NCBI GenBank assembly: GCA_018304385.1
Contig: JAGVWJ010000023.1
Coordinates: 1 to 31,618, forward strand
Length of the DNA: 31,618 nucleotides
Direction: 5' to 3'
From: Candidatus Micrarchaeota archaeon
GTDB lineage: Archaea; Micrarchaeota; Micrarchaeia; Anstonellales; Bilamarchaeaceae
Both the position numbers and the translations under genes were made by a program. The notes beneath the pieces are model-generated. The model did no database searches, was not told the origin of the DNA, and saw nothing but the letters and a program-made list of their open reading frames with translations. Of the stretch, positions 523 through 15,935 are shown piece after piece (within the stretch, counting starts at the first letter, position 1; each line of letters begins with the position of its first letter).

Positions 523-2064
523 ATGCAGAAGTTGTTTGAAAATACTAATGGAAGATCAAAGAGTGAGCATAAATTAACTAGTTCTGTTAAAAGATTTTTT
601 GCTTGTGCATTTGCTGGTTTAGCACTATTAGCATCTCCAATGCTTGCACATCAAGCGCGCGCTCAGCCACCACCAAGCGCAGAGATAGGCGCGCATTCTT
701 TGGAAGGCACAAAAGTAACTCTTAAAAATGGAAAACAAAAAGAAGAGGTCTATTTCTGTGCTCATTCTATAAATAGAGAGTGTGTATTAAATGTTAATGG
801 ACCTGCAGAAGTCACTGTTTTTTATTATCCTATAATTCCCAAGGTTTCTTTTAAAACATCTGGCCCAATACGTATTTCATATTCACTAGATGGAACTAAT
901 TTTGATCAAGATGCCCAAACCGAGCTCTCAACTCTTAGAACAACAGATATTGATTTGGATAAAAGTTTAGGCATAGGAGTTCCAATTGAGATTTCATTTA
1001 CTGCTTTAGAAGGTTCACATAAATTTATTGTTCTGACGCCAAAGGGTTTCTTAAAGGTAAGCAATGTTAGCGAACAAATTCCAATGCCAGATTTAGTCCC
1101 ACTTCCTCCGCCAGAAGTTGCTGCACGGCTAGATGCGCCACCTAATGAAACTTCGAAAGGTTCAGCAGGAGATAGCACCACCACCCAAGGTGTTTCACTT
1201 ACTGCAAAAACAGAAAAACCAAAAGAATTAGATCGACCCGTAGTTAGCCTAGAGTCTGATATTTTGCGCTTTGATGGCATTGGAGAGAATAATAATGCGG
1301 GCCACGTTGGAAATTTAGACATTGTTGGTAAATTATCTTTTGATGATCGCTTCGGGCTTCTCTTAGGGGCTTATGTAAAAATATATCGCTTAGCACTTGA
1401 TAAAAATAATCATGAAACAGATGTTGATTTAACCTCAGTTGGAGTACTAGTTGGTCCATCATTTGTCCTTAAACCAGGAAGCGTATTTTCTGTTATGTTA
1501 TTGGGCGGTACACAATCAACTGGTACTGATGTAAACACAAATGAAGAGTTACAAGGTACTACTGTTGATCGTAAAATGCCCATAGAAGTAGGTTTAAGAT
1601 TACAATATGATTCTAGTTTATTGCAGGCCATGCTTGAGGCAACTACTAACCCAATAAATCCAGGTACGCTTAGATTAGTCCATAATGCAGAATATGTCAC
1701 TCTACCTACTGGGACTCATCCAAAACTCGACCTGGATATGCGATTATTGCATTTACTTAGACCAAATCAAAACGAAACTCCATTAGGTAGTTCTGTTGAT
1801 GATAGAAATGTATATCTAGAGGCACTAGCTGAACTACCATTTACTTATCGCGCAGTTACGGCTAGTTTACTAGGAGGCGGAGAATCTTTGGTTGACGCGA
1901 GTTCTAGATCTACACATGCGTCAGGCCTTGCAGGTCTTGGTTTAGAATTTCATATTTGGAGATTACGTATAGGGGGAAGGGCATTAGTAAATCCAGCTCA
2001 TCTAGAACATCTACCTCGTGCAATGATTACTGCTGAGTTTCTTTCTGAGAGAACAGTAGAATAA
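523..2064 (+). CDS. Secreted hypothetical protein: signal peptide, beta-rich N-domain, Pro-rich linker and beta-barrel-like C-terminal half
   Basis: 513-aa ORF; KRFF + hydrophobic stretch + A-R-A cleavage-like site; PMPDLVPLPPPE linker; repeated alternating hydrophobic/polar strands with Gly and aromatics in the C-terminal ~250 aa. Confidence 0.6.
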   Translation: MQKLFENTNGRSKSEHKLTSSVKRFFACAFAGLALLASPMLAHQARAQPPPSAEIGAHSLEGTKVTLKNGKQKEEVYFCAHSINRECVLNVNGPAEVTVFYYPIIPKVSFKTSGPIRISYSLDGTNFDQDAQTELSTLRTTDIDLDKSLGIGVPIEISFTALEGSHKFIVLTPKGFLKVSNVSEQIPMPDLVPLPPPEVAARLDAPPNETSKGSAGDSTTTQGVSLTAKTEKPKELDRPVVSLESDILRFDGIGENNNAGHVGNLDIVGKLSFDDRFGLLLGAYVKIYRLALDKNNHETDVDLTSVGVLVGPSFVLKPGSVFSVMLLGGTQSTGTDVNTNEELQGTTVDRKMPIEVGLRLQYDSSLLQAMLEATTNPINPGTLRLVHNAEYVTLPTGTHPKLDLDMRLLHLLRPNQNETPLGSSVDDRNVYLEALAELPFTYRAVTASLLGGGESLVDASSRSTHASGLAGLGLEFHIWRLRIGGRALVNPAHLEHLPRAMITAEFLSERTVE

Positions 2065-2965: not shown

Positions 2966-3691
2966 ATGTTAATTCTAATAGGCACAGGAATTTCATTTGA
3001 TCTTACGCTTAGTGCAATTGATGAATTGAAAAAATGTGATGAAATTTATATTGAGAGTTATACGAACTTAATAGAGAATGAAAATATAAGCACGCTAGAA
3101 AAATTAATTAATAAAAAAATTATCTCGCTCGAGCGATCGCAGGTTGAAAGTAAATTTTTAATTGAACAAGCGAAAAATTCGAATGTTGCACTTTTAGTTA
3201 GTGGTGATCCTTTAATTGCTACTACGCATATTTCACTTATCATTGATGCAGAAAAAGCTAGGATAGAAACAAAAATTATTCATAATTCCTCGATTTATTC
3301 TGCAGCAGCTGGAAAGGCAGGCTTACAAATATATAAATTCGGTAAAACTGCATCTATTCCAAACCCAAGGCCAAACTATAATCCTACCTCTTGGTTTGAA
3401 ATAATTAAAGAGAATTTAGCTCGCGAAGCGCATACGCTTGTTTTGCTCGATACTGAACCAAAACCAATGGATGCGAAAACCGCGCTTGAGTTAATTGAGC
3501 GAACAAACAAAGACACAATTTTAAAAAATAAAAAAATAATTATTCTTTCGCGTATTGGCGAGAATAATGAGAAAATTATCTACAATGAAATAGAAAAATT
3601 AAAAATTACTCCACTAGGCAAACCGCCATTTGTAATAATTATCCCAGGAAAGTTGCATATGGTAGAAGAGGAGTATTTACAGCAACTTTAA
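2966..3691 (+). CDS. dph5: Diphthine synthase (diphthine methyl ester synthase)
   Basis: LILIGTG, IYIESYT, LVSGDPLIATTH, IHNSSI, GLQIYKFGKTASIP, HTLVLLD and IIIPGKLH..EEEYL motifs. Confidence 0.95.
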   Translation: MLILIGTGISFDLTLSAIDELKKCDEIYIESYTNLIENENISTLEKLINKKIISLERSQVESKFLIEQAKNSNVALLVSGDPLIATTHISLIIDAEKARIETKIIHNSSIYSAAAGKAGLQIYKFGKTASIPNPRPNYNPTSWFEIIKENLAREAHTLVLLDTEPKPMDAKTALELIERTNKDTILKNKKIIILSRIGENNEKIIYNEIEKLKITPLGKPPFVIIIPGKLHMVEEEYLQQL

Positions 3692-3715
3692 AAATATTAA
3701 TACTGTTTTCTAACT

Positions 3716-4483
3716 ATGAGAATTGATTACCTCACCGAAGCATTATACTTGAGATTAAAACCATACAAAAATGCGCGATCACTATTAGATTTCCTGAAAA
3801 AAGACCAGCAGGTTAATTCCTTCTTAGATGCAACGAATGCAGCGACTATCCAGCGTTTAGGCTATAATGATCATGGGATTACACATTCGCATATTACAAC
3901 TTTTAATGCAGTTAAATCATTGCAAATTTTAAATGAAAAGGGTGTAGCTCCAAATCTGGTAAAAGAGTGTAAATATGCAAAGTTTGAAGATTCCCTAGAG
4001 GTTGTAATTGCAGCCGCATATTTGCATGATATTGGAAATTCAGTTATGCGTGGTCAGCATGAGTTATTTAGTACCATTCTATCAAGAGAAATCATTAATC
4101 GGTATTATAGTAAGCCAACTGATTTGAACGAAAGGAAAAAATCGACAATAATGGAAGGAATAATATGCCACATGGGTAATCCAAACTGGCCACCTGCAAC
4201 ATTAGAGGCGAAGTTGATCCCTATTGCAGATGCGTGCGACATGGAACAAGGTCGTGCGAGAGTTCCTTATAGCTTAGGTAAGAAAGATATTCATAGTTTG
4301 TCTGCGTTAGCAATAACAAAGGTACGCTTAAAAGACGGAGAAAAGAAAATGGAACATAGCGCAGGTATATTCCAAGTAGAAGAATTATTAATCAAAAAGA
4401 TAAAGGCAGCTAATTTTCAGGAATATGTAGAAATAGAGGCAAATATAACTAGCAGGAATGAAAAAATTACATACCTCGACTGA
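3716..4483 (+). CDS. HD-domain phosphohydrolase (archaeal, LGYNDHG-type)
   Basis: RLGYNDHG..H, YLHDIGN, ICH and IADACDM..GRAR motifs. Confidence 0.85.
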   Translation: MRIDYLTEALYLRLKPYKNARSLLDFLKKDQQVNSFLDATNAATIQRLGYNDHGITHSHITTFNAVKSLQILNEKGVAPNLVKECKYAKFEDSLEVVIAAAYLHDIGNSVMRGQHELFSTILSREIINRYYSKPTDLNERKKSTIMEGIICHMGNPNWPPATLEAKLIPIADACDMEQGRARVPYSLGKKDIHSLSALAITKVRLKDGEKKMEHSAGIFQVEELLIKKIKAANFQEYVEIEANITSRNEKITYLD

Positions 4484-5045
4484 GTGGTACATGCATAAGA
4501 TCTACAACAGCGCCATTCCATATTCTTAGTGCATTATCGCTGTTTATCTCCCAGCTAACCCAACCGTCACCTTGTTTTCTTACCTCTTTTACAGCTATTG
4601 GAAAACCATTTGTATCCCGCATTACAAAGAATCTTTTTTGATCATTACCAATGCCTTCCCATATTCTTTCACCATCAGCAGTATATGCATATTTATGGTA
4701 ACGATCTCCATCTGATAAGTCAACAACTATAGCCTTTCTACTATAATTAAATGGTACGTCTCCATCTTCTGGATTGGAATCACAATAGCTTACACAAATG
4801 CGGTCCTCTTTTTTGACATGAACTCTGAATGGGTCTTGTTTATACTCTCTTTGAACCATCTCCCTATGCTTTTCTTCTATCTGTTCTATGCTTAATCCTT
4901 TAATGGAAATCCCGCTTTCGTCCTTAAATTTTGGTGAGGTACAACCTACGGCTATAAATGCTACTAATGGGGCTAGTACTTTAAAACACGGGATAGTTAA
5001 TTTTCCTGGGTTATTAGCTCTAACAGTATTATAATTTAATATCAT
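4467..5045 (-). CDS. Putative lipoprotein
   Basis: Hydrophobic stretch ending in lipobox-like AVG|C (VLAPLVAFIAVGCTS). Confidence 0.55.
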   Translation of the reverse strand: MILNYNTVRANNPGKLTIPCFKVLAPLVAFIAVGCTSPKFKDESGISIKGLSIEQIEEKHREMVQREYKQDPFRVHVKKEDRICVSYCDSNPEDGDVPFNYSRKAIVVDLSDGDRYHKYAYTADGERIWEGIGNDQKRFFVMRDTNGFPIAVKEVRKQGDGWVSWEINSDNALRIWNGAVVDLMHVPLSRGM

Positions 5046-5057
5046 AAAAACACCAAA

Positions 5058-5417
5058 TTATTTTTTTATTCCTTCATTCAAAGGTTTAAGATCTTTAAAT
5101 TTATTCACTCCTAATCTAATTTCTCTTACATTTCCAAGGGCAAATGTCAATTCTTGAACAAGAGGGTCATCTACTCTAACTGAGAAAGAACGTGTAATTG
5201 CACTTCTTAACTCATCCTGTGATATATTTGGACGACCATGTCTTTGTCTTCCTATATTAATTATTCTTATTACGTCTTCGGCAACTGTGCCTATCTCCCC
5301 CCAATAGGCTTGCCCACGTGTAGATGTTTGATGTGACCTTCCGAGTAAATGATCTTCTAATCTTCTAAGAACTGGTCGAAATGTTCTAGGATGTAATTCA
5401 CGTTTTACAGCTTGCAT
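5058..5417 (-). CDS. Hypothetical protein (~119 aa)
   Basis: ATG at 5417 removes the overlap with the upstream glycosyltransferase; no family recognised. Confidence 0.55.
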   Translation of the reverse strand: MQAVKRELHPRTFRPVLRRLEDHLLGRSHQTSTRGQAYWGEIGTVAEDVIRIINIGRQRHGRPNISQDELRSAITRSFSVRVDDPLVQELTFALGNVREIRLGVNKFKDLKPLNEGIKK

Positions 5418-5427
5418 AATACCATCT

Positions 5428-6903
5428 TTATGATTGCCTTCTTTCTGTAGCTCTACTAACTGCAGCTTCAAAATCAAGGAGCATTCGTGTATTTGAAAAA
5501 CCACTTAATAGAGAATCTAATGCAAAACGATTAGATTGTACTCCATTACCTTTAAAATCTCTTATTGCCACAATATATTGTTCTATAGTAGTATTTATAT
5601 TTGTATCTGGAGGTGGAAGAAGAACACCTAGTGAAGGATCTGTTACAACCTCGGGTATCCCACCCACATTACTAGCAATTAAATACGATCCTGCTAGCAT
5701 AGATTCAATAACAGTTAGTGAAAGCCCATCTGAACGTACTGGACAGATAGTAATATCAGATATAGCTTGTACTGGAGTTGGTAATAAACCACCCCAAATT
5801 GAATGTGATTGAAGCTCTCTATATTCTTCACCGCCGTATTTTAAGAATGCCTGTTCAACATCTGGAGCAAAAGTTGCATTTCCACCAACAAATTTAGAAA
5901 TATCTAGTACTAATCGTAGTCTTCCTTCTCTTATTAATCTTTCAAATTTCATTAATTCCCCTAATCTCTTTTTTAATTGTTTATTTGCTACAAGTACATC
6001 TGGACTTGCAACTACGACTCCAGTGTTTGCATCTCTTTGATCTAGACTACGCTCCAAATAATCAAGGATACCTAATAGGATATCACCACCTTTTATATTA
6101 TCTAAACGTCCTACATAGGCTACAGTTTTATCAAGATCTGGATTAAGCCCAATGTTTCTTCGGTTTTGTCTTATAAATTCTTTATCTTGCAAGGTGTATA
6201 AGTTAGCATTTATTCCATTTAGAATGACATCTGTTGGTAAGGTTGAACCATTGCCATCTCCACCTAATGATCTTGTAAAATGTTCATTAAAATCCCTACC
6301 TGCTTTGTCACTAACAGCAATAACTCCATCTGCAGCATATTTTAGTGCACTACAATATTCTCTCAACAGTACTCTCCCAATATCGCTAGTAACTAAATAA
6401 GTATCTGTAGATAATACGTGAATATATAAGAGAACAGTAGCCATTTTATCTAGGCCGGCAACCTCTAATTGTTTTCTGACATAATGTGCTGCAGTTGCAT
6501 TTGGAGTTAATGGATAATGAAGAACTATAACTGGGTGATACCCCCCTGTAATTAATCCACTAGCCAAGGCAAATAATGTTGAGTTAGCATCAGATTTACG
6601 AGTTGTTATGACAGATGTGTTAAATTGTTCCATTGCCATTCGCTTAATTTTGTCACTCATTAATGGTTCCTCTCTTGGGGTCATATTTTGGAATACTACA
6701 AAATTTTTTCTGTTTTCTTGTGGGGAAACAAAACGAGTAGCACTAGTAAGATCACCAATAACAAATGTTTGACCAAAAAATCTAGGATTAAGTGGAAATG
6801 GGTGTCTACCTGCAAGGTGGATATAAGCACGTTTATCGGTTGCACTAGCTATTACATGAGTCATACCTTTATTAACACAATTCTTATTTAAATACCTTTC
6901 CAT
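5428..6903 (-). CDS. GT-B fold glycosyltransferase (GT4/glycogen-synthase-like)
   Basis: VIAVS, VILNGIN, YVGRLDNIKG and PVRSDGLSLTVIESM..ASNVGGIPEVV motifs. Confidence 0.85.
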   Translation of the reverse strand: MERYLNKNCVNKGMTHVIASATDKRAYIHLAGRHPFPLNPRFFGQTFVIGDLTSATRFVSPQENRKNFVVFQNMTPREEPLMSDKIKRMAMEQFNTSVITTRKSDANSTLFALASGLITGGYHPVIVLHYPLTPNATAAHYVRKQLEVAGLDKMATVLLYIHVLSTDTYLVTSDIGRVLLREYCSALKYAADGVIAVSDKAGRDFNEHFTRSLGGDGNGSTLPTDVILNGINANLYTLQDKEFIRQNRRNIGLNPDLDKTVAYVGRLDNIKGGDILLGILDYLERSLDQRDANTGVVVASPDVLVANKQLKKRLGELMKFERLIREGRLRLVLDISKFVGGNATFAPDVEQAFLKYGGEEYRELQSHSIWGGLLPTPVQAISDITICPVRSDGLSLTVIESMLAGSYLIASNVGGIPEVVTDPSLGVLLPPPDTNINTTIEQYIVAIRDFKGNGVQSNRFALDSLLSGFSNTRMLLDFEAAVSRATERRQS

Positions 6904-6985
6904 TTTAATCCACTAAAACATAACCTTTAAAAGCTTATCCATCCATATACTATAACATATATTAAATACTTAGAGGTGGTTATCA

Positions 6986-7108
6986 ATGTTGTGTAAATTG
7001 ACAAAGAAATGCAAGAAAAAGAATGTTTGTTTGCATGAGGTTGCTGCAGTAGGTGTTGTAGTTGTTGCAGCAGTTTATGCAGTATTAGTATTGGGCGTTG
7101 TAGCTTAA
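6986..7108 (+). CDS. 40-aa single-pass membrane microprotein (not in ORF track)
   Basis: GAGGTG Shine-Dalgarno before ATG 6986; MLCKLTKKCKKKNVCLHEVAAVGVVVVAAVYAVLVLGVVA*. Confidence 0.6.
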   Translation: MLCKLTKKCKKKNVCLHEVAAVGVVVVAAVYAVLVLGVVA

Positions 7109-7169
7109 TCTATACGCTTTTCTTTCTATTTTTCATTAGATTTAAATAGCTTATTAGTAATAGCTTAGC

Positions 7170-7382
7170 ATGATAAAACACGAGATAAAGACATGTTCTA
7201 AGTGTAAGAAAAAGATATTTATCTCCCTGCTAGAGGAGAAAGGCCAACTGGTCGAGACCCAATTTATTGGCCTCAAGAAGATTTCTGAGCGAAAAGGAAT
7301 AACTGAGAACAAAGTATTTATTTGTGGGTTATGTGAGAAACCACAGGGAAAAGCTAAACCAACAAAATCTAAGAAAAAGTAG
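7170..7382 (+). CDS. Small Zn-finger-like protein
   Basis: CSKC ... CGLC pairs and a basic tail. Confidence 0.6.
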   Translation: MIKHEIKTCSKCKKKIFISLLEEKGQLVETQFIGLKKISERKGITENKVFICGLCEKPQGKAKPTKSKKK

Positions 7383-7467
7383 TTCTAATTTTGTGTTTCC
7401 GAAACATTTATATATAACCTTCTACATATATTTATTACCACAGATAATATGTGGCAAGGTGCCTCCC

Positions 7468-7629
7468 ATGGAAATAAAACACATAAAATCTGATCCAAAG
7501 AAAATATGGCGTAAACTAAAACCAAAATGCGAGCACAAGGTAGAGTCAGTTTTCGAGCTAGAAACCACGCTTACAGGGGATGTAATGTTTACTACTTGCA
7601 AATGTAAGTCCAGTTTTATTTTTAACTAA
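7468..7629 (+). CDS. Small Cys-containing hypothetical protein (53 aa)
   Basis: AAGGTG SD before ATG 7468; CEH ... CKC motif; the longer track ORF from 7324 is probably an over-extension. Confidence 0.5.
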   Translation: MEIKHIKSDPKKIWRKLKPKCEHKVESVFELETTLTGDVMFTTCKCKSSFIFN

Positions 7630-7654
7630 GCGGTCAGCCTCGAAACCACTAATA

Positions 7655-8779
7655 CTATAAGTTTTCATCCCTTATTCTTTCCAATCTTTCTTCTCCCTTG
7701 TCTTCTGGTGCTACATTATGAATTGGTTGATAACGGTTGCTATTTGGTCGAATCATTTTGAATATAAAATCAGTCATTTTTTCTTTATCTCTGTCATGCA
7801 TTGTGAATAGCAATCCATGATATGATTTCTCTTGCTTCTGAACCCATAGTGCAAATTCCTTGCGCTCTTTAGCTTTAGGTCGCTTTTTATACAATTCTTT
7901 TACTTCATTTTCGATTCGTTCTTTTGTCTTTATTAAAATCCCTGCTGTTTTTTCTGTCCACCCTCTAAATTCCTCTGGTATTTTTTCAATAAATTCTTTG
8001 TTGAATTTGTTATCCCTAAGAATCTCCCAAATGCTAATAAGCGATAGATTCGATAGAATACGGTGTATCTTCAGATACTCTTCTCCTTTAATTTTAATCC
8101 TTAAACCATTAGAATATCTGGCAACAAATCCTTCTTCATTTGCTGGAAGCGTATCTATTGTTTCGCGAATCTGCTTTATTGTCAATGGCTTTTTTGGAAC
8201 GATCTTAAATCCGTACAGTTTTGCAATCTCTTGAAGCTCGCTATAGTCATAATCCTTACCTGTTTTTATATCGATTGTGCCTATTAGAAAAAGCTCTTTT
8301 TGTCCTTTATAATCGATAACAATGCGATTTTCTGGATAAATAATTTCGAACAGTAGGGTCAACCCTTCTGGAATTTTTAGATTAGAAAAACGCTCTCGAA
8401 AATAGATTGTTGCCCATGCACCTTGCTCGGAATAGAACGTTCCTTTAGTAGTAACAAAATATTCGTCTTTATCATAATAGAAAATACCTAACGACCCATC
8501 TAATTTTTCTGTGATTTCTGGCTCTTTCATAGGTAGGTTTTCGAGCTTGGTCTCTTCAGTTTCATTTAAATTGAAGAATTTGGGGAATGGCCTTGCGACT
8601 ATTTCTCCTGTTTTTAGATTAACAACTAGTCCGCGTGCCATTTTCGTATATTTATCCCATTTTTTATCATAAACGCATTTAGGTGTATAACAGTATATTG
8701 CAAGATCGCCTTTAACCGCCTTAGAAATTAGCTTATTTTGGACGCGTTTTTCGAGCTCGGAGATTAAATTGTCAGCCAT
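7655..8779 (-). CDS. T4 Rnl1/RnlA-like RNA ligase
   Basis: ARGLV, RPFPKFFN, nucleotidyltransferase motif I EKLDGS, TKG, LLFEII, EEGFV and RIKIK motifs; likely start ATG 8779 (MADNL). Confidence 0.85.
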   Translation of the reverse strand: MADNLISELEKRVQNKLISKAVKGDLAIYCYTPKCVYDKKWDKYTKMARGLVVNLKTGEIVARPFPKFFNLNETEETKLENLPMKEPEITEKLDGSLGIFYYDKDEYFVTTKGTFYSEQGAWATIYFRERFSNLKIPEGLTLLFEIIYPENRIVIDYKGQKELFLIGTIDIKTGKDYDYSELQEIAKLYGFKIVPKKPLTIKQIRETIDTLPANEEGFVARYSNGLRIKIKGEEYLKIHRILSNLSLISIWEILRDNKFNKEFIEKIPEEFRGWTEKTAGILIKTKERIENEVKELYKKRPKAKERKEFALWVQKQEKSYHGLLFTMHDRDKEKMTDFIFKMIRPNSNRYQPIHNVAPEDKGEERLERIRDENL

Positions 8780-8814
8780 GAACAGTTTTAGATAAATAGA
8801 TATATAAATATTTC

Positions 8815-8828
8815 TATAGATATCTATA
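8815..8828. promoter_or_regulatory. Perfect 14-bp palindrome TATAGATATCTATA, a candidate operator in the ligase/antitoxin divergent promoter
   Basis: Seen directly; further TAGATA half-sites at 8789 and 8797 in the 61-bp intergenic gap. Confidence 0.6.
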
Positions 8829-8840
8829 AATGTGATTAAT

Positions 8841-9107
8841 ATGGGAAACATCATGATTTCAGTAGATGAAGAAAAAGAAAATACAATACGACACTATGCA
8901 CAAGAGATCTCGGGGGGGAAGAAAGGATCATTGAGTGAGTTTATATGGATTACAGTCTCTCACTATATCGAAGAATTTAAACAAAAACACGAAAAAGAAG
9001 CCTCCTTTAAGAGAATGATAGAACGAATGAAGCATGCTAAAAAATTAGGAATTTTAAATAGAGAAGGAAAGGCGTATTCTTCAAGAGATGAGTTGTATGA
9101 ACGGTAA
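8841..9107 (+). CDS. Ribbon-helix-helix antitoxin (VapB-like)
   Basis: MGNIMISVDEEKENTIRHYA...KGSLSEFI strand-helix-helix pattern; overlaps the PIN gene start. Confidence 0.7.
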   Translation: MGNIMISVDEEKENTIRHYAQEISGGKKGSLSEFIWITVSHYIEEFKQKHEKEASFKRMIERMKHAKKLGILNREGKAYSSRDELYER

Positions 9108-9531
9108 CCATTTACTTATTGACACTAACATTTTGATATATTCAGAAACCAATGATGAAAAAGAGAAACACGACATGGTTATCCTAGCTCTAGAAAGAAT
9201 AAAAACACAAGGAGATATTTTAACGATTAGTATCCAAAATATAAATGAATTTTCAAATAATATGATTAAAAAAAGTAAGCTAAGCGATTCTTCTATTAAT
9301 GAGATTATAACAAGTTATCAATCTACTTTTAGTTTGATCTTTTTTAATTTAGAAACAATCAGGGAAGCAAACAGAATTTCTAGGGCAACCGGTATTCATT
9401 TTTATGATGCGTTACTTACAGCTACTATGCATGAAAATGGTATTGATACGATTATTACCGAGAATGAAAAGGATTTTCAGAAGATCCCATGGCTAAAAGT
9501 TATAAACCCATTTAAAAATGAGATAAAATAG
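9097..9531 (+). CDS. vapC: PIN-domain ribonuclease toxin (VapC family)
   Basis: LIDTNILI, INEF, FYDALL and TENEKDF acidic catalytic set intact. Confidence 0.9.
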   Translation: MNGNHLLIDTNILIYSETNDEKEKHDMVILALERIKTQGDILTISIQNINEFSNNMIKKSKLSDSSINEIITSYQSTFSLIFFNLETIREANRISRATGIHFYDALLTATMHENGIDTIITENEKDFQKIPWLKVINPFKNEIK

Positions 9532-9533
9532 AA

Positions 9534-9556
9534 ATATCTTAGAATTTCTAAGATAT
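9534..9556. repeat. Perfect 11-bp inverted repeat ATATCTTAGAA-T-TTCTAAGATAT
   Basis: Seen directly, immediately after the vapC stop; could be an operator or a hairpin. Confidence 0.7.
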
Positions 9557-9576
9557 AGTAAGAATAAGGTGTATAA

Positions 9577-9801
9577 ATGAACCTTTTAGAATATTTTTTC
9601 AGTTTTTTCAAAGGGAAACCCAAAACAAAGGAAGAAGAATTAAAAGATAAGATATGGCACATTGAAGTAAAACGAGCAGAAGTAATGTTAAAGCTAGCTA
9701 GAGAAAAAGAGAAACATGATCCTGATATTCTTAGAATCGATAAATACGAACAGGAGCTTGCTGTTTTAGATACTAAGTTAAGTGAAATTCAAAGTAAATG
9801 A
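9577..9801 (+). CDS. Small coiled-coil hypothetical protein
   Basis: AAGGTG SD; heptad-like charged helices. Confidence 0.6.
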   Translation: MNLLEYFFSFFKGKPKTKEEELKDKIWHIEVKRAEVMLKLAREKEKHDPDILRIDKYEQELAVLDTKLSEIQSK

Positions 9802-9870
9802 AAATATTAATAAGTTGCTAAATAAGGTAAAAAACGTTATGTTTAAATAGATGAAATATACAATTAGTAT

Positions 9871-10470
9871 ATGGTCAAATACATCGCAGTGCCAAATCCC
9901 TCGCAGAAAAAAGGTAGATTTACCCCTTTATTACTAACAACTGGAAAATTACCTATATCTGAAGGCATTATAGAATCTGCAGGAAGAACGTTTGTTGTAA
10001 GAAGATATTTTAGGGAGATACCGGATGAACTCAAACCAACAATTACAGAAGATGTGCACGGGTTATTAGTTTGTGAAAGCATGCCAAATATATTAATAGC
10101 TATAAGATTATTGCATTCTGATCGTCAAACAAAATATCTTTATCTTAATGAATTAACTTCAGAGGGCATAGAAATAAATTTCGGATACTTGTGCTTCCGA
10201 GTAAGAGAAAATGATCTGCATATAAGAGATTATGATCCACTTGAACCAAGAAGGGGGTTTAGTTCCGAGGGTGCTTTTAGAACCTATGGAGAAGATCTTG
10301 AACTAACAAGATTTGTGTTGGATCTATTTGCAGATATCGCCAAATCAGTTTATGGAAGATATAGGTTAACAAATACTTATCCATATCCAAATGAAGCAAA
10401 TAGATTTTTAGGGTCTGGGTTTAGAGAAGAGATGCAAGGACATGATCTAGTTTGGGTAAGGCACATATAA
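9871..10470 (+). CDS. Hypothetical protein, possibly a degenerate GNAT fold in the C-terminal half
   Basis: FGYLCFRV..DLHIRD strands, LTRFVLDLFADIAK helix and NRFLGSGFRE resemble GNAT motifs A/B. Confidence 0.4.
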   Translation: MVKYIAVPNPSQKKGRFTPLLLTTGKLPISEGIIESAGRTFVVRRYFREIPDELKPTITEDVHGLLVCESMPNILIAIRLLHSDRQTKYLYLNELTSEGIEINFGYLCFRVRENDLHIRDYDPLEPRRGFSSEGAFRTYGEDLELTRFVLDLFADIAKSVYGRYRLTNTYPYPNEANRFLGSGFREEMQGHDLVWVRHI

Positions 10471-10720
10471 AGTATTTATTCTAAACCGCACCATAGTAAA
10501 CCAAATGCATGCGTCATTTACCATTACGGTAAACCAAACCTAGTTACCCTAACACCATTTTCATCTATCGGTTTACCATTACAGTATTGATTGGCCTTTT
10601 TGTGCACTGAAAGCAAGGTTAAGCGGTGCAAATAGGTTAAAAGATTGGAATTGGCTAGTTTTGGGGTATTTTGAGTATATCATTATGGTATAAATTTACT
10701 TAGGGTTTACTGTGAAGATG

Positions 10721-11176
10721 TTATTTTGTCTCCTTTACTAAGTCAATTAACTCATCGTGAATTTTCTTGCGCGAAGAGTCGGTCCAAAAGAATTGGCTTC
10801 CTATTAGTATCGCATATACTGATAAAATAGCGCCAATAATCGAAATAGCACCTAAAATATTACTATAACTAGTCCAAAATACAGCCGACAGAATACCTGT
10901 AATAGAGACGAGTGTTCCAAAAATTAAATACCCAGTTCTAATATGGTGGAAAGTTAAATAATAGAATCCGTTGCTTTTTTCAATTTTTATTCCATAGAGA
11001 GCTAATCTTAAGTAATTTAGTAGGCGGCCACTTTCTAATTTTTTAACTACAATATAATTTTCACCTTTATACCTTTGCCGTTCAACTGAATAGTATCTCT
11101 CTTTTAGTTCTTTTTCAAATCTAGTAAATTCACTTTCTGAAAACTTTATTTCTTTATAATATTCTAAGAAACCCAT
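10721..11176 (-). CDS. Membrane protein with two C-terminal TM helices
   Basis: Two hydrophobic segments (GYLIFGTLVSITGILSAVFW; ILGAISIIGAILSVYAILIG). Confidence 0.7.
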   Translation of the reverse strand: MGFLEYYKEIKFSESEFTRFEKELKERYYSVERQRYKGENYIVVKKLESGRLLNYLRLALYGIKIEKSNGFYYLTFHHIRTGYLIFGTLVSITGILSAVFWTSYSNILGAISIIGAILSVYAILIGSQFFWTDSSRKKIHDELIDLVKETK

Positions 11177-11329
11177 ATTAACCACACAGCAATTTTCAAA
11201 TTATCTTGCGCTTCTTTCTTTAAATATCTATCTAAATATTTTCATCCCTCGCATACGCGCACCTAGCCTCTTGCCCCGCAATCACGAGTGAAAGACCCGT
11301 TTCCTCAAATCCTTTTAGAAATTCTTAAA

Positions 11330-11485
11330 TTATTCTTTTAGTTCAGATTCTTTATACCTGTTATCACAGGATTTACAAAAATATAAGTTTTCACAAGTTG
11401 TTTCTTTTGTTTTAATATTCATAAATTCTGCAAAACCAACTTCCTCAAGTTCTTTTTTGCATTTTGGGCATATTTTGTTCTTCAT
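11330..11485 (-). CDS. 51-aa Zn-finger microprotein (not in ORF track)
   Basis: GGGTGGTG SD; MKNKICPKCKKELEEVGFAEFMNIKTKETTCENLYFCKSCDNRYKESELKE*. Confidence 0.7.
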   Translation of the reverse strand: MKNKICPKCKKELEEVGFAEFMNIKTKETTCENLYFCKSCDNRYKESELKE

Positions 11486-11861
11486 AACACCACCCAGCTT
11501 TAATCGTTTACCCCTAAATTCTTTCCTTCAACCGAATAATTTCTTTCTTTTCCTCCCCACATACCTGGCCTCTCGCCCCTAAGTCTGTCTCCAGTTCAGG
11601 GTTTTGGGTCTTGTTTCTAAGATATTATTAGGAATTCTAACAATTACTTATAAACTAGCTCTTTCAAAACAGTCTTTTCTCTTTTCATGATCTCTTCGAA
11701 TAGCTGATCAACGTAAACTTTGTTATCTTTCTTTCTAATATTTTATCAACAATGAAAATCTGACTATTAAATATTTATGCTTTTCTATCGCAATCATAAA
11801 ATTAGAACAAATAAAATAAAAAAATAAGAAAAAAAAGAATCCATCATCTAAATGAATAGAA

Positions 11862-12014
11862 TCAGTATCTTGGTTTTGGTTTATAACAATTTTTGCAGTA
11901 TACTGGTCTTCCTTCCGTTGGTTTGAAAGGTACCTGGCATGCTTGCCCACATTTTGCGCATGTTGCGTCGTACATTGGTCGATCGCCGCCACCGCCTCTA
12001 TCTTCATATCCCAT
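11862..12014 (-). CDS. CxxC-x17-CxxC domain microprotein, copy 1 (50 aa; not in ORF track)
   Basis: AAGGTG SD; MGYEDRGGGGDRPMYDATCAKCGQACQVPFKPTEGRPVYCKNCYKPKPRY*; exactly 17 residues between the CxxC pairs. Confidence 0.9.
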   Translation of the reverse strand: MGYEDRGGGGDRPMYDATCAKCGQACQVPFKPTEGRPVYCKNCYKPKPRY

Positions 12015-12188
12015 ATTTTATACACCTTATTCATTTGTTTTAGTAAATCTTTAGATTTACCGCTTACCTAATTATTATTATCGTCTATATTTAATCTTTT
12101 CTATATACTCATAGGCATGTTAAATTCATTTTCTAATATCATTTTATCTTTTCTAAGATATATCTATAATATTACTTCTGCTGAGAGA

Positions 12189-12701
12189 TTATTTGTGAGT
12201 TATACTACTTAATATCTCCTTCACATTTATATGACAATATCCCATACCTCCACGTTTTTCTAGATATTTCTGATGATACTCTTCTGCTTTATAGAATTCT
12301 TTTGCAGGTTGAATCGTAGTAGCGACTTGGCCACCGAGTTTTTTATTTATTTCCTCTTTTGATTTTTCTGCAACCTTTTTCTGTTCAGATGTATGATAGA
12401 ATATTGCTGCATAATATTGCGTTCCTATATCGTTTCCTTGTCCATCTGCTTGCGAAGGATGATGTGCTATCCAAAATACATCAAGTAATTTATCGTAGCT
12501 GGTTTCTTTAGGGTCGAATTTTATTTGTATTGCCTCAACATGGCCTGTTTTACCAGTGCACACTTCCTCATAAGTTGGGTTTTTTGCACTCCCACCAGTG
12601 TAGCCAACAACTGTTTCTTTAACGCCTTTTATTTGCCTAAATAATTCTTCTACTCCCCAAAAACAACCTGCACCGAACGTTGCAGTTTCTAGTTTTTTCA
12701 T
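12189..12701 (-). CDS. msrA: Peptide methionine sulfoxide reductase A
   Basis: GAGCFWGVE, NPTYEEVC..TGHVE and AEEYHQKY motifs. Confidence 0.95.
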   Translation of the reverse strand: MKKLETATFGAGCFWGVEELFRQIKGVKETVVGYTGGSAKNPTYEEVCTGKTGHVEAIQIKFDPKETSYDKLLDVFWIAHHPSQADGQGNDIGTQYYAAIFYHTSEQKKVAEKSKEEINKKLGGQVATTIQPAKEFYKAEEYHQKYLEKRGGMGYCHINVKEILSSITHK

Positions 12702-15330: not shown

Positions 15331-15723
15331 TTATTTTTCTGGCAAATATTCAACACCAGACAATTTTTCAAAAGCTGGATCGCATGTAACAAATTTTAGG
15401 TTATTTTCTAAGGCATATTGATACCCTATAGCATCTACGTAAGATACGTTAAAGGCCTTTCCAGTTACTTTTTTTCCATAAAGTTCTAATCTTTTCTTCA
15501 TTGCATTTTTCAAAGTTTTTTCCGGCACAACAACCTCATAATGTGCGAATACTTCATAATATTTTTCAGCCTGTTCTTCATTATGCTCTCTAAGTGATAT
15601 GTAGTATAGTTCCATTAGTTGAAATTTAGTAACGAAAAACGGTTTACCGCTTTCTACAATATTTACATATTTTGGATCATTTTCAAAATAACCAATCATA
15701 ATACAAGTATCTAAAAAATACAT
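15331..15723 (-). CDS. vapC: PIN-domain toxin (VapC family)
   Basis: FLDTC, LMELY, YVDAIG and TCDPAF motifs; ATG overlaps the antitoxin stop (TAATG). Confidence 0.9.
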   Translation of the reverse strand: MYFLDTCIMIGYFENDPKYVNIVESGKPFFVTKFQLMELYYISLREHNEEQAEKYYEVFAHYEVVVPEKTLKNAMKKRLELYGKKVTGKAFNVSYVDAIGYQYALENNLKFVTCDPAFEKLSGVEYLPEK

Positions 15724-15935
15724 TAATCCCACCCCTCGTCTATTTCCCTCATTAACTCTAACATAGACTTTTTTGTTTTAAAAGTACCCTTAAGTTCTTT
15801 TAGCTCAGGAATTACCATAATGTCTACATGAAGCATCTTATTCTCATTAATCTTTAGTTCATCTGCTTTCTCTTTTGGTATAAGTATAGCCCAAGAATTA
15901 CCTACTCTCCTAGCGCGTGTATGTATATCGATCAT
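15723..15935 (-). CDS. AbrB/MazE-type antitoxin
   Basis: RARRVGNSWAILIPKEKADELKI swapped-hairpin motif. Confidence 0.85.
   Translation of the reverse strand: MIDIHTRARRVGNSWAILIPKEKADELKINENKMLHVDIMVIPELKELKGTFKTKKSMLELMREIDEGWD

What the first reader, a model, noticed from the sequence alone, without database searches (positions are those of the whole stretch)
7655..9531. Rnl1-type RNA ligase head-to-head with a VapBC pair across a shared palindromic operator
Seen: only 61 bp separate the ligase ATG (8779) and the RHH antitoxin ATG (8841), and they contain the perfect palindrome TATAGATATCTATA plus extra TAGATA half-sites. Both the PIN and the ligase catalytic motifs are intact. Knowledge: RHH antitoxins autorepress through palindromic operators, VapC PIN nucleases cut tRNA/rRNA, and T4 Rnl1 repairs nuclease-broken tRNA but needs 5'-P/3'-OH ends (with Pnkp in T4). 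Inference: a co-regulated RNA break-and-repair module, in which derepression yields both toxin and a ligase that could reverse the damage or counter foreign anticodon nucleases. No Pnkp lies in the window, so the toxin would need to leave ligatable ends or healing is encoded elsewhere.
Basis: partly seen in the sequence, partly recalled or inferred. Interest (0 to 1): 0.7.

Follow-up and report, generated by a model that had tools for sequence, protein, structure and literature searches.

The report
RNA ligase back-to-back with VapBC
A tiny DPANN archaeon carries an intact phage-type RNA-joining enzyme that shares a strongly conserved 61-base two-way promoter with an RNA-cutting toxin-antitoxin pair, but comparison with relatives shows the pairing is a lineage-specific, non-obligatory linkage, not a general cut-and-repair system.

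Summary
A 374-aa T4-Rnl1-family RNA ligase (7655-8779, minus) and an RHH-PIN VapBC pair (8841-9531, plus) are 61 bp apart. The spacer holds the palindrome TATAGATATCTATA and further TAGATA copies, and all catalytic residues are intact.

The host is a Micrarchaeota MAG. The same three-gene cassette occurs in one other genus with unrelated flanks. Its spacer is 88.5% identical there, against about 50% at third codon positions, so the spacer is under selection. Each ATG lies 25-26 nt from a TATA-like box, which is this genome's norm for leaderless mRNAs. Co-regulation is therefore likely.

The promoter block belongs to the VapBC cassette: five VapB orthologues keep it with no ligase beside them. 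One genome has both genes unlinked. About 190 bacterial and phage relatives of the ligase neighbour Pnkp-type kinase/phosphatases, not VapBC.

Other members of the archaeal ligase clade sit next to HicAB, ParE/RelE-AbrB or AbrB-like genes. This recurrent toxin-antitoxin adjacency is unexplained.

Repair of VapC cuts is chemically feasible (reported 3'-OH/5'-P ends; no Pnkp found) but unproven.

The scan earlier noted a PIN-plus-Rnl3 ligase cassette on other DNA. Interest is moderate.

The parts
7655..8779 (-). T4-Rnl1-family ATP-dependent RNA ligase, 374 aa, start MADN
   Evidence: Pfam PF09511 at 83.8 bits against a cut-off of 28.3. TIGR02308 at 83 bits, below the equivalog cut-off of 242. 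phmmer to T4 Rnl1 2c5u at 6.7e-17, with motifs aligned. AF2 model pLDDT 91; best Foldseek hits are T4 Rnl1 over the full length, then fungal Trl1.
8780..8840 (.). 61-nt divergent promoter/operator region; dyad centre at 8809/8810, which is the midpoint of the two ATGs
   Evidence: 88.5% identical to G005, against about 50% at synonymous sites. The core is conserved upstream of 7 VapB orthologues. Imperfect 22-nt-arm palindrome 8792-8827 (I3).
8801..8808 (-). TATA box TTTATATA facing the ligase, centred 25 nt from its ATG (leaderless mRNA inferred)
   Evidence: Read from the sequence. Genome-wide, TATA-like 8-mers peak centred at -26/-25 from ATGs.
8811..8818 (+). TATA-like TTTCTATA facing vapB, centred 26 nt from ATG 8841
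   Evidence: An alternative vapB TATA is TATATAAA at 8801-8808, centred at -36, with an SD-like GTGAT at 8832-8836.
8815..8828 (.). Perfect palindrome TATAGATATCTATA overlapping the vapB TATA-like box
   Evidence: Unique in the genome. Exact in G005 and G010; degenerate in G001, G191, G004 and G009.
8797..8826 (.). Inverted repeat TAGATA-N18-TATCTA bracketing both TATA boxes; candidate VapB operator half-sites
   Evidence: Only one instance in the genome. Same spacing in G005, G001 and G191; one mismatch in G004 and G009.
8789..8794 (+). Extra TAGATA copy between the ligase TATA box and the ligase ATG
   Evidence: Not conserved in G005 (TATATA) or in orthologues without the ligase.
8841..9107 (+). 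VapB-type antitoxin, 88 aa, N-terminal ribbon-helix-helix
   Evidence: RHH_6 at 4e-4, below the cut-off. Orthologues at 57-69% identity in 6 genomes, each followed by the PIN gene. The first codons MGNIM vary at third positions, so ATG 8841 is translated.
9088..9531 (+). VapC PIN-domain toxin, 147 aa, overlapping vapB by 20 nt
   Evidence: PF01850 at 7.6e-10. D12/E54/D107/E125 invariant.
9536..9554 (.). Inverted repeat ATCTTAGAA-T-TTCTAAGAT just after the vapC stop; marks the right end of the homology with G005
   Evidence: Conserved in G005 but not in G001. A terminator role is inferred only.

Best explanation
This is an accessory three-gene cassette of Micrarchaeota.

A mobile VapBC (RHH antitoxin, PIN RNase toxin) cassette brings its own conserved promoter/operator. 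A horizontally acquired, catalytically intact T4-Rnl1-family RNA ligase has been joined to it back to back.

The two ATGs lie 31 nt either side of a dyad centre. Each faces a TATA-like box 25-26 nt away, the distance typical of leaderless mRNAs in this genome. TAGATA/TATCTA repeats overlap both boxes.

Inferred: VapB or the VapB-VapC complex binds these repeats and throttles both promoters, so ligase and toxin-antitoxin expression rise together when repression is lifted.

The linkage is one evolutionary event shared by two genera. It is not an obligate partnership. Most likely the ligase is a general sealer of 3'-OH/5'-P RNA breaks kept in a toxin-rich variable genome region. The VapBC pair may stabilise the cassette. 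Any resealing of VapC products would be a possible bonus, not the demonstrated purpose.
For: Shown:
- Gene identities and active sites.
- The same cassette in G005, a different genus, with unrelated flanks. All three genes are equally diverged (73.5/71.2/71.5% DNA identity) and the spacer is 88.5% identical.
- The genome-wide TATA peak is centred at -26/-25, and both boxes fit it.
- The promoter core is conserved upstream of 7 VapB orthologues, 5 of them without a ligase.
- G191 has the ligase and this VapBC on separate contigs.
- The ligase was found in only 3 of 401 genomes of the phylum.
- Window region ~4300-12200 is not syntenic with same-genus genomes.
- G000 holds at least 23 toxin genes: PIN 17, HicA 3, ParE 3.
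- Relatives of the ligase neighbour Pnkp-type genes, not toxin-antitoxin genes.
Against: - The cassette stayed intact while synonymous sites approached saturation and the flanks changed. This could reflect selection for the partnership.
- In 3 of 6 independent contexts of the archaeal ligase clade the ligase abuts a confirmed RNase-type toxin-antitoxin pair (VapBC, HicAB, ParE/RelE-AbrB). A fourth context has an AbrB-type gene head to head with it. Random placement predicts about 3% per gene.
- No transcription or DNA-binding data exist. Promoter and operator assignments are inference.
Confidence: 0.5

Rival explanations
1. True break-and-repair module. VapB-controlled derepression yields both VapC, which cuts tRNA or rRNA leaving 3'-OH/5'-P ends, and the Rnl1-type ligase, which reseals those ends without Pnkp. 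The ligase acts as a second, enzymatic antidote and makes the growth arrest reversible.
For: - Shared, strongly conserved bidirectional promoter.
- The cassette is retained as a unit in two genera.
- No T4-type Pnkp phosphatase was found in G000, G005 or G191, while RtcB, which cannot seal 3'-OH/5'-P ends, is present.
- VapC is reported to give 3'-OH/5'-P ends (PMC7180214).
- Published precedents for PIN-ligase pairing: HARP-Rnl3, typically bidirectional (PMC12153264), and PIN_3 operons in which a ligase was proposed to neutralise the nuclease (PMC5499597).
Against: - 5 of 7 genomes with orthologous VapBC have no ligase beside it, and G191 has both unlinked.
- No PIN appears among the listed neighbours of about 190 relatives of the ligase.
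- Other clade members abut HicA or RelE-type toxins, whose 2',3'-cyclic-P/5'-OH ends Rnl1 cannot seal directly (PMC7180214).
- VapC end chemistry is disputed (PMC4705866).
- The control for the Pnkp search was silent.
Confidence: 0.22
2. Conflict-island co-location. The ligase is a stand-alone RNA-repair or counter-nuclease gene directed against foreign ribonucleases from viruses, hosts or competitors. It sits among toxin-antitoxin or abortive-infection cassettes because such genes accumulate in the same variable regions.
For: - The ligase family is abundant in phage contigs and pairs with Pnkp, Hen1 and RlaP repair genes elsewhere.
- Sporadic distribution: 3 of 401 genomes.
- Non-syntenic region.
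- Different toxin-antitoxin families abut the ligase in different genomes.
- A second PIN gene lies 6 kb away in the window.
Against: - No integrase, CRISPR or other defence genes were seen next to the cassette.
- This reading does not by itself explain the precisely symmetric shared promoter or its conservation.
Confidence: 0.15
3. Mere adjacency without co-regulation. The conserved spacer serves only vapBC, and the ligase has an independent or weak promoter. The palindrome is AT-rich low-complexity sequence.
For: - The perfect palindrome is only modestly improbable in AT-rich DNA and is degenerate in 4 of 7 orthologues.
- The conserved core exists without any ligase.
Against: - The ligase ATG sits exactly 25 nt from a consensus TTTATATA box preceded by a BRE-like AGAAAT.
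- The part of the spacer next to the ligase is conserved between G000 and G005 but not in loci without the ligase.
Confidence: 0.1

Closest known systems
Bacteriophage T4 RNA ligase 1 (RnlA) with Pnkp, which repairs PrrC-cut tRNA-Lys
   Same: Same ligase family and length. All nucleotidyltransferase motifs are present, and the best structural match covers both domains. Bacterial and phage relatives keep a Pnkp-type neighbour.
   Different: Identity to T4 Rnl1 is only about 23%, and the score is below the NCBIfam equivalog cut-off. The host is cellular and archaeal. No Pnkp is adjacent or found in the genome. The partner here is the cell's own toxin-antitoxin pair, not a healing enzyme.
HARP (PIN_5 protein-only RNase P) paired with Rnl3 RNA ligase (Seshadri & Gopalan 2025, PMC12153264; also noted in PMC5499597)
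   Same: A PIN-superfamily RNase of the VapC structural group is paired with an ATP-dependent RNA ligase, typically divergently transcribed, in archaea. The published functional link is likewise only inferred.
   Different: That case involves a different ligase family (Rnl3, not Rnl1) and a different PIN cluster with no antitoxin. HARP and Rnl3 co-occur in 89% of HARP genomes. Here the pairing occurs in 2 of 7 genomes with the orthologous VapBC.
Canonical VapBC type II toxin-antitoxin loci with autoregulated promoters
   Same: The antitoxin gene comes first and overlaps the PIN gene. The four acidic residues are conserved. Inverted repeats overlap the promoter. The cassette is found in many unrelated genomic contexts.
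   Different: The promoter is archaeal TATA/BRE-type. In two genera its reverse face appears to drive a third, enzymatic gene.
RtcB reversal of MazF rRNA cleavage in E. coli (PMC5416887); RtcBA induced by VapC and colicin D (PMC7790460)
   Same: The concept is the same: an RNA ligase counteracts damage done by a toxin-antitoxin RNase.
   Different: RtcB seals 2',3'-cyclic-P/5'-OH ends, is unlinked to the toxin-antitoxin locus, and has its own regulator.

Membership tests
T4 Rnl1 family RNA ligase (PF09511 / TIGR02308) | Covalent nucleotidyltransferase motifs I (KxDG), III, IV (EGxV) and V (KxK) | tested here: met
   K92, E145, E216-G217 and K229/K231 are invariant in A6 and align to T4 K99, E159, E227 and K240/K242 (T4 numbering from my own knowledge).
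T4 Rnl1 family RNA ligase (PF09511 / TIGR02308) | Profile score above the curated cut-off | tested here: inconclusive
   The Pfam family cut-off is passed (83.8 against 28.3). The NCBIfam equivalog cut-off is not (83.2 against 242). It is a family member, not an equivalog of T4 RnlA.
T4 Rnl1 family RNA ligase (PF09511 / TIGR02308) | Rnl1-specific helical C-terminal domain | tested here: met
   The AF2 model (pLDDT 91) is helical over residues 233-342. Foldseek aligns 382 columns to T4 Rnl1 (E 6e-19, TM 0.56), followed by Trl1 ligase domains. The TIGR02308 match spans model positions 43-370.
T4 Rnl1 family RNA ligase (PF09511 / TIGR02308) | Seals 3'-OH/5'-P breaks in tRNA anticodon loops | not testable with these tools
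   Needs an enzyme assay.
T4-type RNA repair pathway (Rnl1 + Pnkp) | A Pnkp kinase/phosphatase encoded nearby or elsewhere in the genome | tested here: not met
   No Pnkp lies in the window. PF25109 was not found in G000, G005, G191 or G001, but the control genomes were also silent and G000 is 89% complete. Only weak generic AAA_33 hits were found.
VapBC type II toxin-antitoxin | PIN domain with four conserved acidic residues | tested here: met
   PF01850 at 39.9 bits against a cut-off of 23.6. D12, E54, D107 and E125 are invariant.
VapBC type II toxin-antitoxin | An upstream, translationally coupled small antitoxin with a DNA-binding domain | tested here: inconclusive
   Gene order, the 20-nt overlap and co-inheritance in 7 genomes are met. 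The RHH assignment rests on an RHH_6 hit below the cut-off (21.3 against 27).
VapBC type II toxin-antitoxin | Toxicity neutralised by the antitoxin; autorepression at an operator | not testable with these tools
   Only conserved inverted repeats over the promoter can be shown.
Dedicated nuclease-ligase module (HARP-Rnl3-like) | Consistent co-occurrence and co-location of the two genes across genomes | tested here: not met
   2 of 7 genomes with orthologous VapB have the ligase adjacent, 1 has it elsewhere, and 4 have none found. The ligase clade has 5 other context types.
Dedicated nuclease-ligase module (HARP-Rnl3-like) | Divergent (bidirectional) gene arrangement | tested here: met

The most novel reading that the evidence does not exclude
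A tripartite toxin-antitoxin-repair switch. The VapB operator gates both vapBC and an Rnl1-type ligase, and the ligase directly reseals VapC-made 3'-OH/5'-P breaks without any Pnkp. The archaeon would then have an enzymatic second antidote and a reversible growth arrest. More broadly, this ligase clade would have been recruited repeatedly beside RNase toxin-antitoxin pairs (VapBC, HicAB, RelE-AbrB) as a recovery device.
Probability: 0.2. Interest if true: 0.7.

Novelty: new variant of a known kind. Interest (0 to 1): 0.42.

Why it matters
If the ligase really reverses VapC damage, it would be the first toxin-antitoxin locus with a built-in, co-regulated RNA-repair enzyme. It would also give a simple test of what ends an archaeal VapC leaves. 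Even on the conservative reading, three points are useful:
- It documents a rare transfer of a phage-type Rnl1 ligase into DPANN archaea.
- It gives a clear example of a symmetric bidirectional archaeal promoter built onto a mobile toxin-antitoxin cassette.
- It is a second, independent PIN-ligase pairing beside HARP-Rnl3, which makes that theme worth a bench test.

Tried and rejected
The neighbourhoods of clade members P0003-P0008 and P0012 could not be read, so the sample is 7 loci with 6 independent contexts.
- The single-protein scan of genome contigs found only one distant locus. Alignment-based scans were needed.
- A degenerate search for the promoter block in genome contigs found only G001 and G005.
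- phmmer of the PIN protein against PDB found nothing at E<0.1.
- Rfam found nothing in 7000-10500.
- No flanking direct or inverted repeats suggest a transposon.
- Burroughs & Aravind 2016 (NAR 44:8525) is not held, so its ligase contexts could not be checked.
- Rejected: TAGATA as a ligase-specific regulatory motif. It is absent upstream of the ligase in the five contexts without VapBC.
- Rejected: the 399-aa ORF starting at 8854 as the real ligase start. It is not conserved.
- Rejected: the 74-aa ORF at 9577-9801 as a cassette component. Its other match in the genome is a coiled-coil segment inside a 262-aa membrane protein.
- Housekeeping comparison: the RsmB-like protein is 64% identical between G000 and G005 and 70% between G000 and G191, against 78% and 73% for the ligase. 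This hints at transfer between lineages but is not decisive.
Full report
**1. What is there**

The window is contig C52 of a 1.53-Mb, 65-contig MAG that is 89% complete. Close homologues of the ligase are named Candidatus Micrarchaeota, so the host is a DPANN archaeon with about 36% GC.

On the minus strand, 7655-8779 encodes a 374-aa protein. It matches Pfam RNA_lig_T4_1 (2e-23) and T4 Rnl1 structures (6.7e-17). On the plus strand, 8841-9107 encodes an 88-aa protein with a weak ribbon-helix-helix match. 9088-9531 encodes a 147-aa PIN protein.

The spacer 8780-8840 is 61 nt. It contains TATAGATATCTATA at 8815-8828 and TAGATA at 8789, 8797 and 8817.

**2. Are the enzymes intact and correctly named?**

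Ligase:
- Motif I lysine K92 (KLDG), E145, E216-G217 and K229/K231 are invariant across 54 homologues. They align with the T4 Rnl1 motifs.
- An AlphaFold model (pLDDT 91) finds T4 Rnl1 as its best full-length match, followed by fungal Trl1 ligase domains.
- It fails the NCBIfam equivalog cut-off (83 against 242 bits). It is an Rnl1-family member, not an orthologue of T4 RnlA.

PIN protein:
- D12, E54, D107 and E125 are invariant in seven orthologues.
- vapB overlaps vapC by 20 nt.

**3. Distribution of the ligase**

The ligase was found in 3 of 401 genomes sampled from the phylum. A tight clade of 68-100% identity exists only in Micrarchaeota. The next relatives are at most 46% identical and are bacterial or phage sequences. 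This indicates horizontal acquisition.

Immediate neighbours of 123 + 137 flanking ORFs around about 190 distant relatives are dominated by Pnkp-type genes:
- AAA_33 kinase: 7 and 22.
- HAD_PNKP phosphatase: 4 and 21.
- AAA_14 ATPases: 3 and 14.
- RlaP, Hen1 and a cyclic-phosphate receiver domain also occur.
- One HicA was seen, and no PIN is in the listed families.

VapBC is therefore not the family's usual partner.

**4. Contexts within the archaeal clade**

| Context | Neighbours of the ligase |
|---|---|
| (i) G000, the window | VapBC, divergent |
| (ii) G005, another genus (also recovered as L086) | Same three genes, unrelated flanks |
| (iii) G191 | HicB-HicA, divergent |
| (iv) L007 | 52-aa AbrB-like gene, divergent; ParE/RelE plus MazE/AbrB pair, convergent |
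| (v) L088 | MazE/AbrB-type gene, divergent, then two unknown paralogues and an AAA_14 ATPase |
| (vi) L006 | AAA_14/DUF4143 and DUF63 |
| (vii) L008/L009 | Trm5-type methyltransferase and ribosomal protein genes |

VapBC linkage is thus one event, shared by (i) and (ii). However, 3 of 6 independent contexts place the ligase next to a confirmed RNase-type toxin-antitoxin pair, and a fourth places it next to an antitoxin-type gene.

G000 has at least 23 toxin genes: PIN 17, HicA 3 and ParE 3. By my own estimate, roughly 3% of genes flank such a pair. The enrichment is real relative to random placement. It cannot be judged against the unknown baseline for accessory genes in variable regions.

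**5. The cassette in two genera**

Between G000 and G005 the three genes are equally diverged:

| Region | DNA identity | Third-codon-position identity |
|---|---|---|
| Ligase | 73.5% | 0.50 |
| vapB | 71.2% | 0.44 |
| vapC | 71.5% | 0.56 |
| 61-nt spacer | 88.5% | n/a |
| DNA outside the cassette | 53-57% | n/a |

Homology ends about 30 nt after the vapC stop, at a conserved inverted repeat. The spacer is therefore under purifying selection, and the trio has travelled or persisted as a unit.

**6. Whose promoter is it?**

VapB orthologues of 57-69% identity occur in G001, G191, G004, G009 and G010. They sit in unrelated housekeeping contexts, and none is next to a ligase. In G010 the contig starts 51 nt upstream of vapB, so that neighbour cannot be seen. 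G191 carries both the ligase (contig C41) and this VapBC (contig C29), unlinked.

All seven share an upstream block:
- ATAGATATATAA, then 7 nt, then a YATAKATAT-type element.
- TGTGAT close to the ATG, followed by ATGGG.

The block therefore belongs to the VapBC cassette. TAGATA is absent upstream of the ligase in the five contexts without VapBC.

The perfect 14-mer palindrome is exact only in G000, G005 and G010. The inverted repeat TAGATA-N18-TATCTA is kept with the same spacing in G000, G005, G001 and G191, and has one mismatch in G004 and G009.

**7. Promoter anatomy (inference)**

In this genome, TATA-like 8-mers upstream of long ORFs show a sharp peak centred at -26/-25 from the ATG. This is the signature of leaderless mRNAs. 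A separate Shine-Dalgarno peak lies at -12 to -9.

- On the minus strand, TTTATATA (8808 to 8801) is preceded by AGAAAT, which fits the BRE consensus RNWAAW (consensus from my own knowledge). It is centred 25 nt from the ligase ATG.
- On the plus strand, TTTCTATA (8811-8818) is centred 26 nt from the vapB ATG.
- The dyad centre of the imperfect 36-nt palindrome 8792-8827 (I3) is 8809/8810, exactly midway between the two ATGs.
- The TAGATA/TATCTA copies overlap both boxes.

A VapB or VapBC complex bound there would plausibly block TBP/TFB on both faces. Co-regulation is thus likely, at about 0.65, but it has not been shown.

**8. Is repair of VapC cuts plausible?**

- A review states that VapC toxins leave 3'-OH and 5'-phosphate ends (PMC7180214, citing McKenzie 2012). 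Those are the ends an Rnl1-type ligase joins. Another review lists VapC among makers of 5'-OH ends (PMC4705866).
- No T4-type Pnkp phosphatase domain was found in G000, G005, G191 or G001. The control search was silent, so this is weak evidence.
- RtcB, which seals the other kind of ends, is present in all four genomes.

The chemistry is therefore permissive. HicA and RelE-type toxins leave cyclic-phosphate ends (PMC7180214). The ligase's other toxin-antitoxin neighbours thus do not fit a direct-resealing model.

**9. Comparison with what is known**

The idea that a ligase neutralises or complements a PIN nuclease is already in the literature:
- HARP-Rnl3, typically bidirectional (PMC12153264).
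- PIN_5 co-occurring with the TIGR01209 ligase, and PIN_3 operons with a ligase proposed to neutralise the nuclease (PMC5499597).

This scan earlier noted a PIN-plus-Rnl3 cassette in another small archaeon (e1-2454494). I found no paper describing an Rnl1-family ligase sharing a promoter with a canonical VapBC pair.

**10. Verdict**

A co-regulated cassette is likely. A dedicated break-and-repair system is possible, at about 0.2, but the comparative data argue against an obligate partnership.
- Novelty: a new variant of a known kind.
- Interest is moderate. The recurrent placement of this ligase clade beside RNase toxin-antitoxin pairs is the part most worth a bench test.

Noticed in passing
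window 9577-9801 (+); L005 2683-2898 (-): A 74-aa coiled-coil ORF lies just downstream of vapC. It has a homologue (44-45% identical, E 7e-14) lying convergent to the ligase in G191. The only other match in G000 is a segment inside a 262-aa membrane protein on contig C33, so this may be a generic coiled-coil similarity.
   Followed up: partly
L006 2508-3824; L088 672-1880; bacterial loci L089-L165: An AAA_14/DUF4143 ATPase is a recurrent immediate neighbour of this ligase family. It accounts for 14 of 137 flanking ORFs in bacterial genomes and appears in two of the seven Micrarchaeota contexts. Function unknown.
   Followed up: partly
window ~4300-12200: This stretch has no synteny with the two same-genus genomes G001 and G002, whereas 3000-4296 and 12205 onward do match them. 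The cassette therefore lies in a variable region.
   Followed up: partly
window 15331-15732 (-): A second PIN-domain gene (PF01850, 2e-9) lies 6 kb from the cassette. G005 also has further PIN genes within about 1.2 kb of its cassette.
   Followed up: partly
L007 ~735-864 and L088 ~3120-3250 (upstream of the ligase): The two ligase loci with a divergent AbrB-type gene share a conserved inverted repeat, TTATTGT-N5-ACAATTA, in the spacer. It may be an operator analogous to the one studied here.
   Followed up: no
proteins P0092, P0099, P0111, P0118: Relatives of the ligase of about 560 aa are fused to a metallophosphoesterase domain (PF12850/PF00149). This would be a ligase with a built-in end-healing domain.
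   Followed up: no
L178 (G009) 644-1081 (+) next to its VapBC at 1083-1746 (-): In G009 the orthologous VapBC lies convergent to a 145-aa gene that looks to me like archease, the RtcB cofactor. This is from reading the sequence only and was not checked against Pfam.
   Followed up: no
G000 contig C51:19696-20520: The only RtcB match in this genome is cut off by a contig end (model positions 23-291 of 426). The housekeeping ligase gene is incompletely assembled.
   Followed up: no
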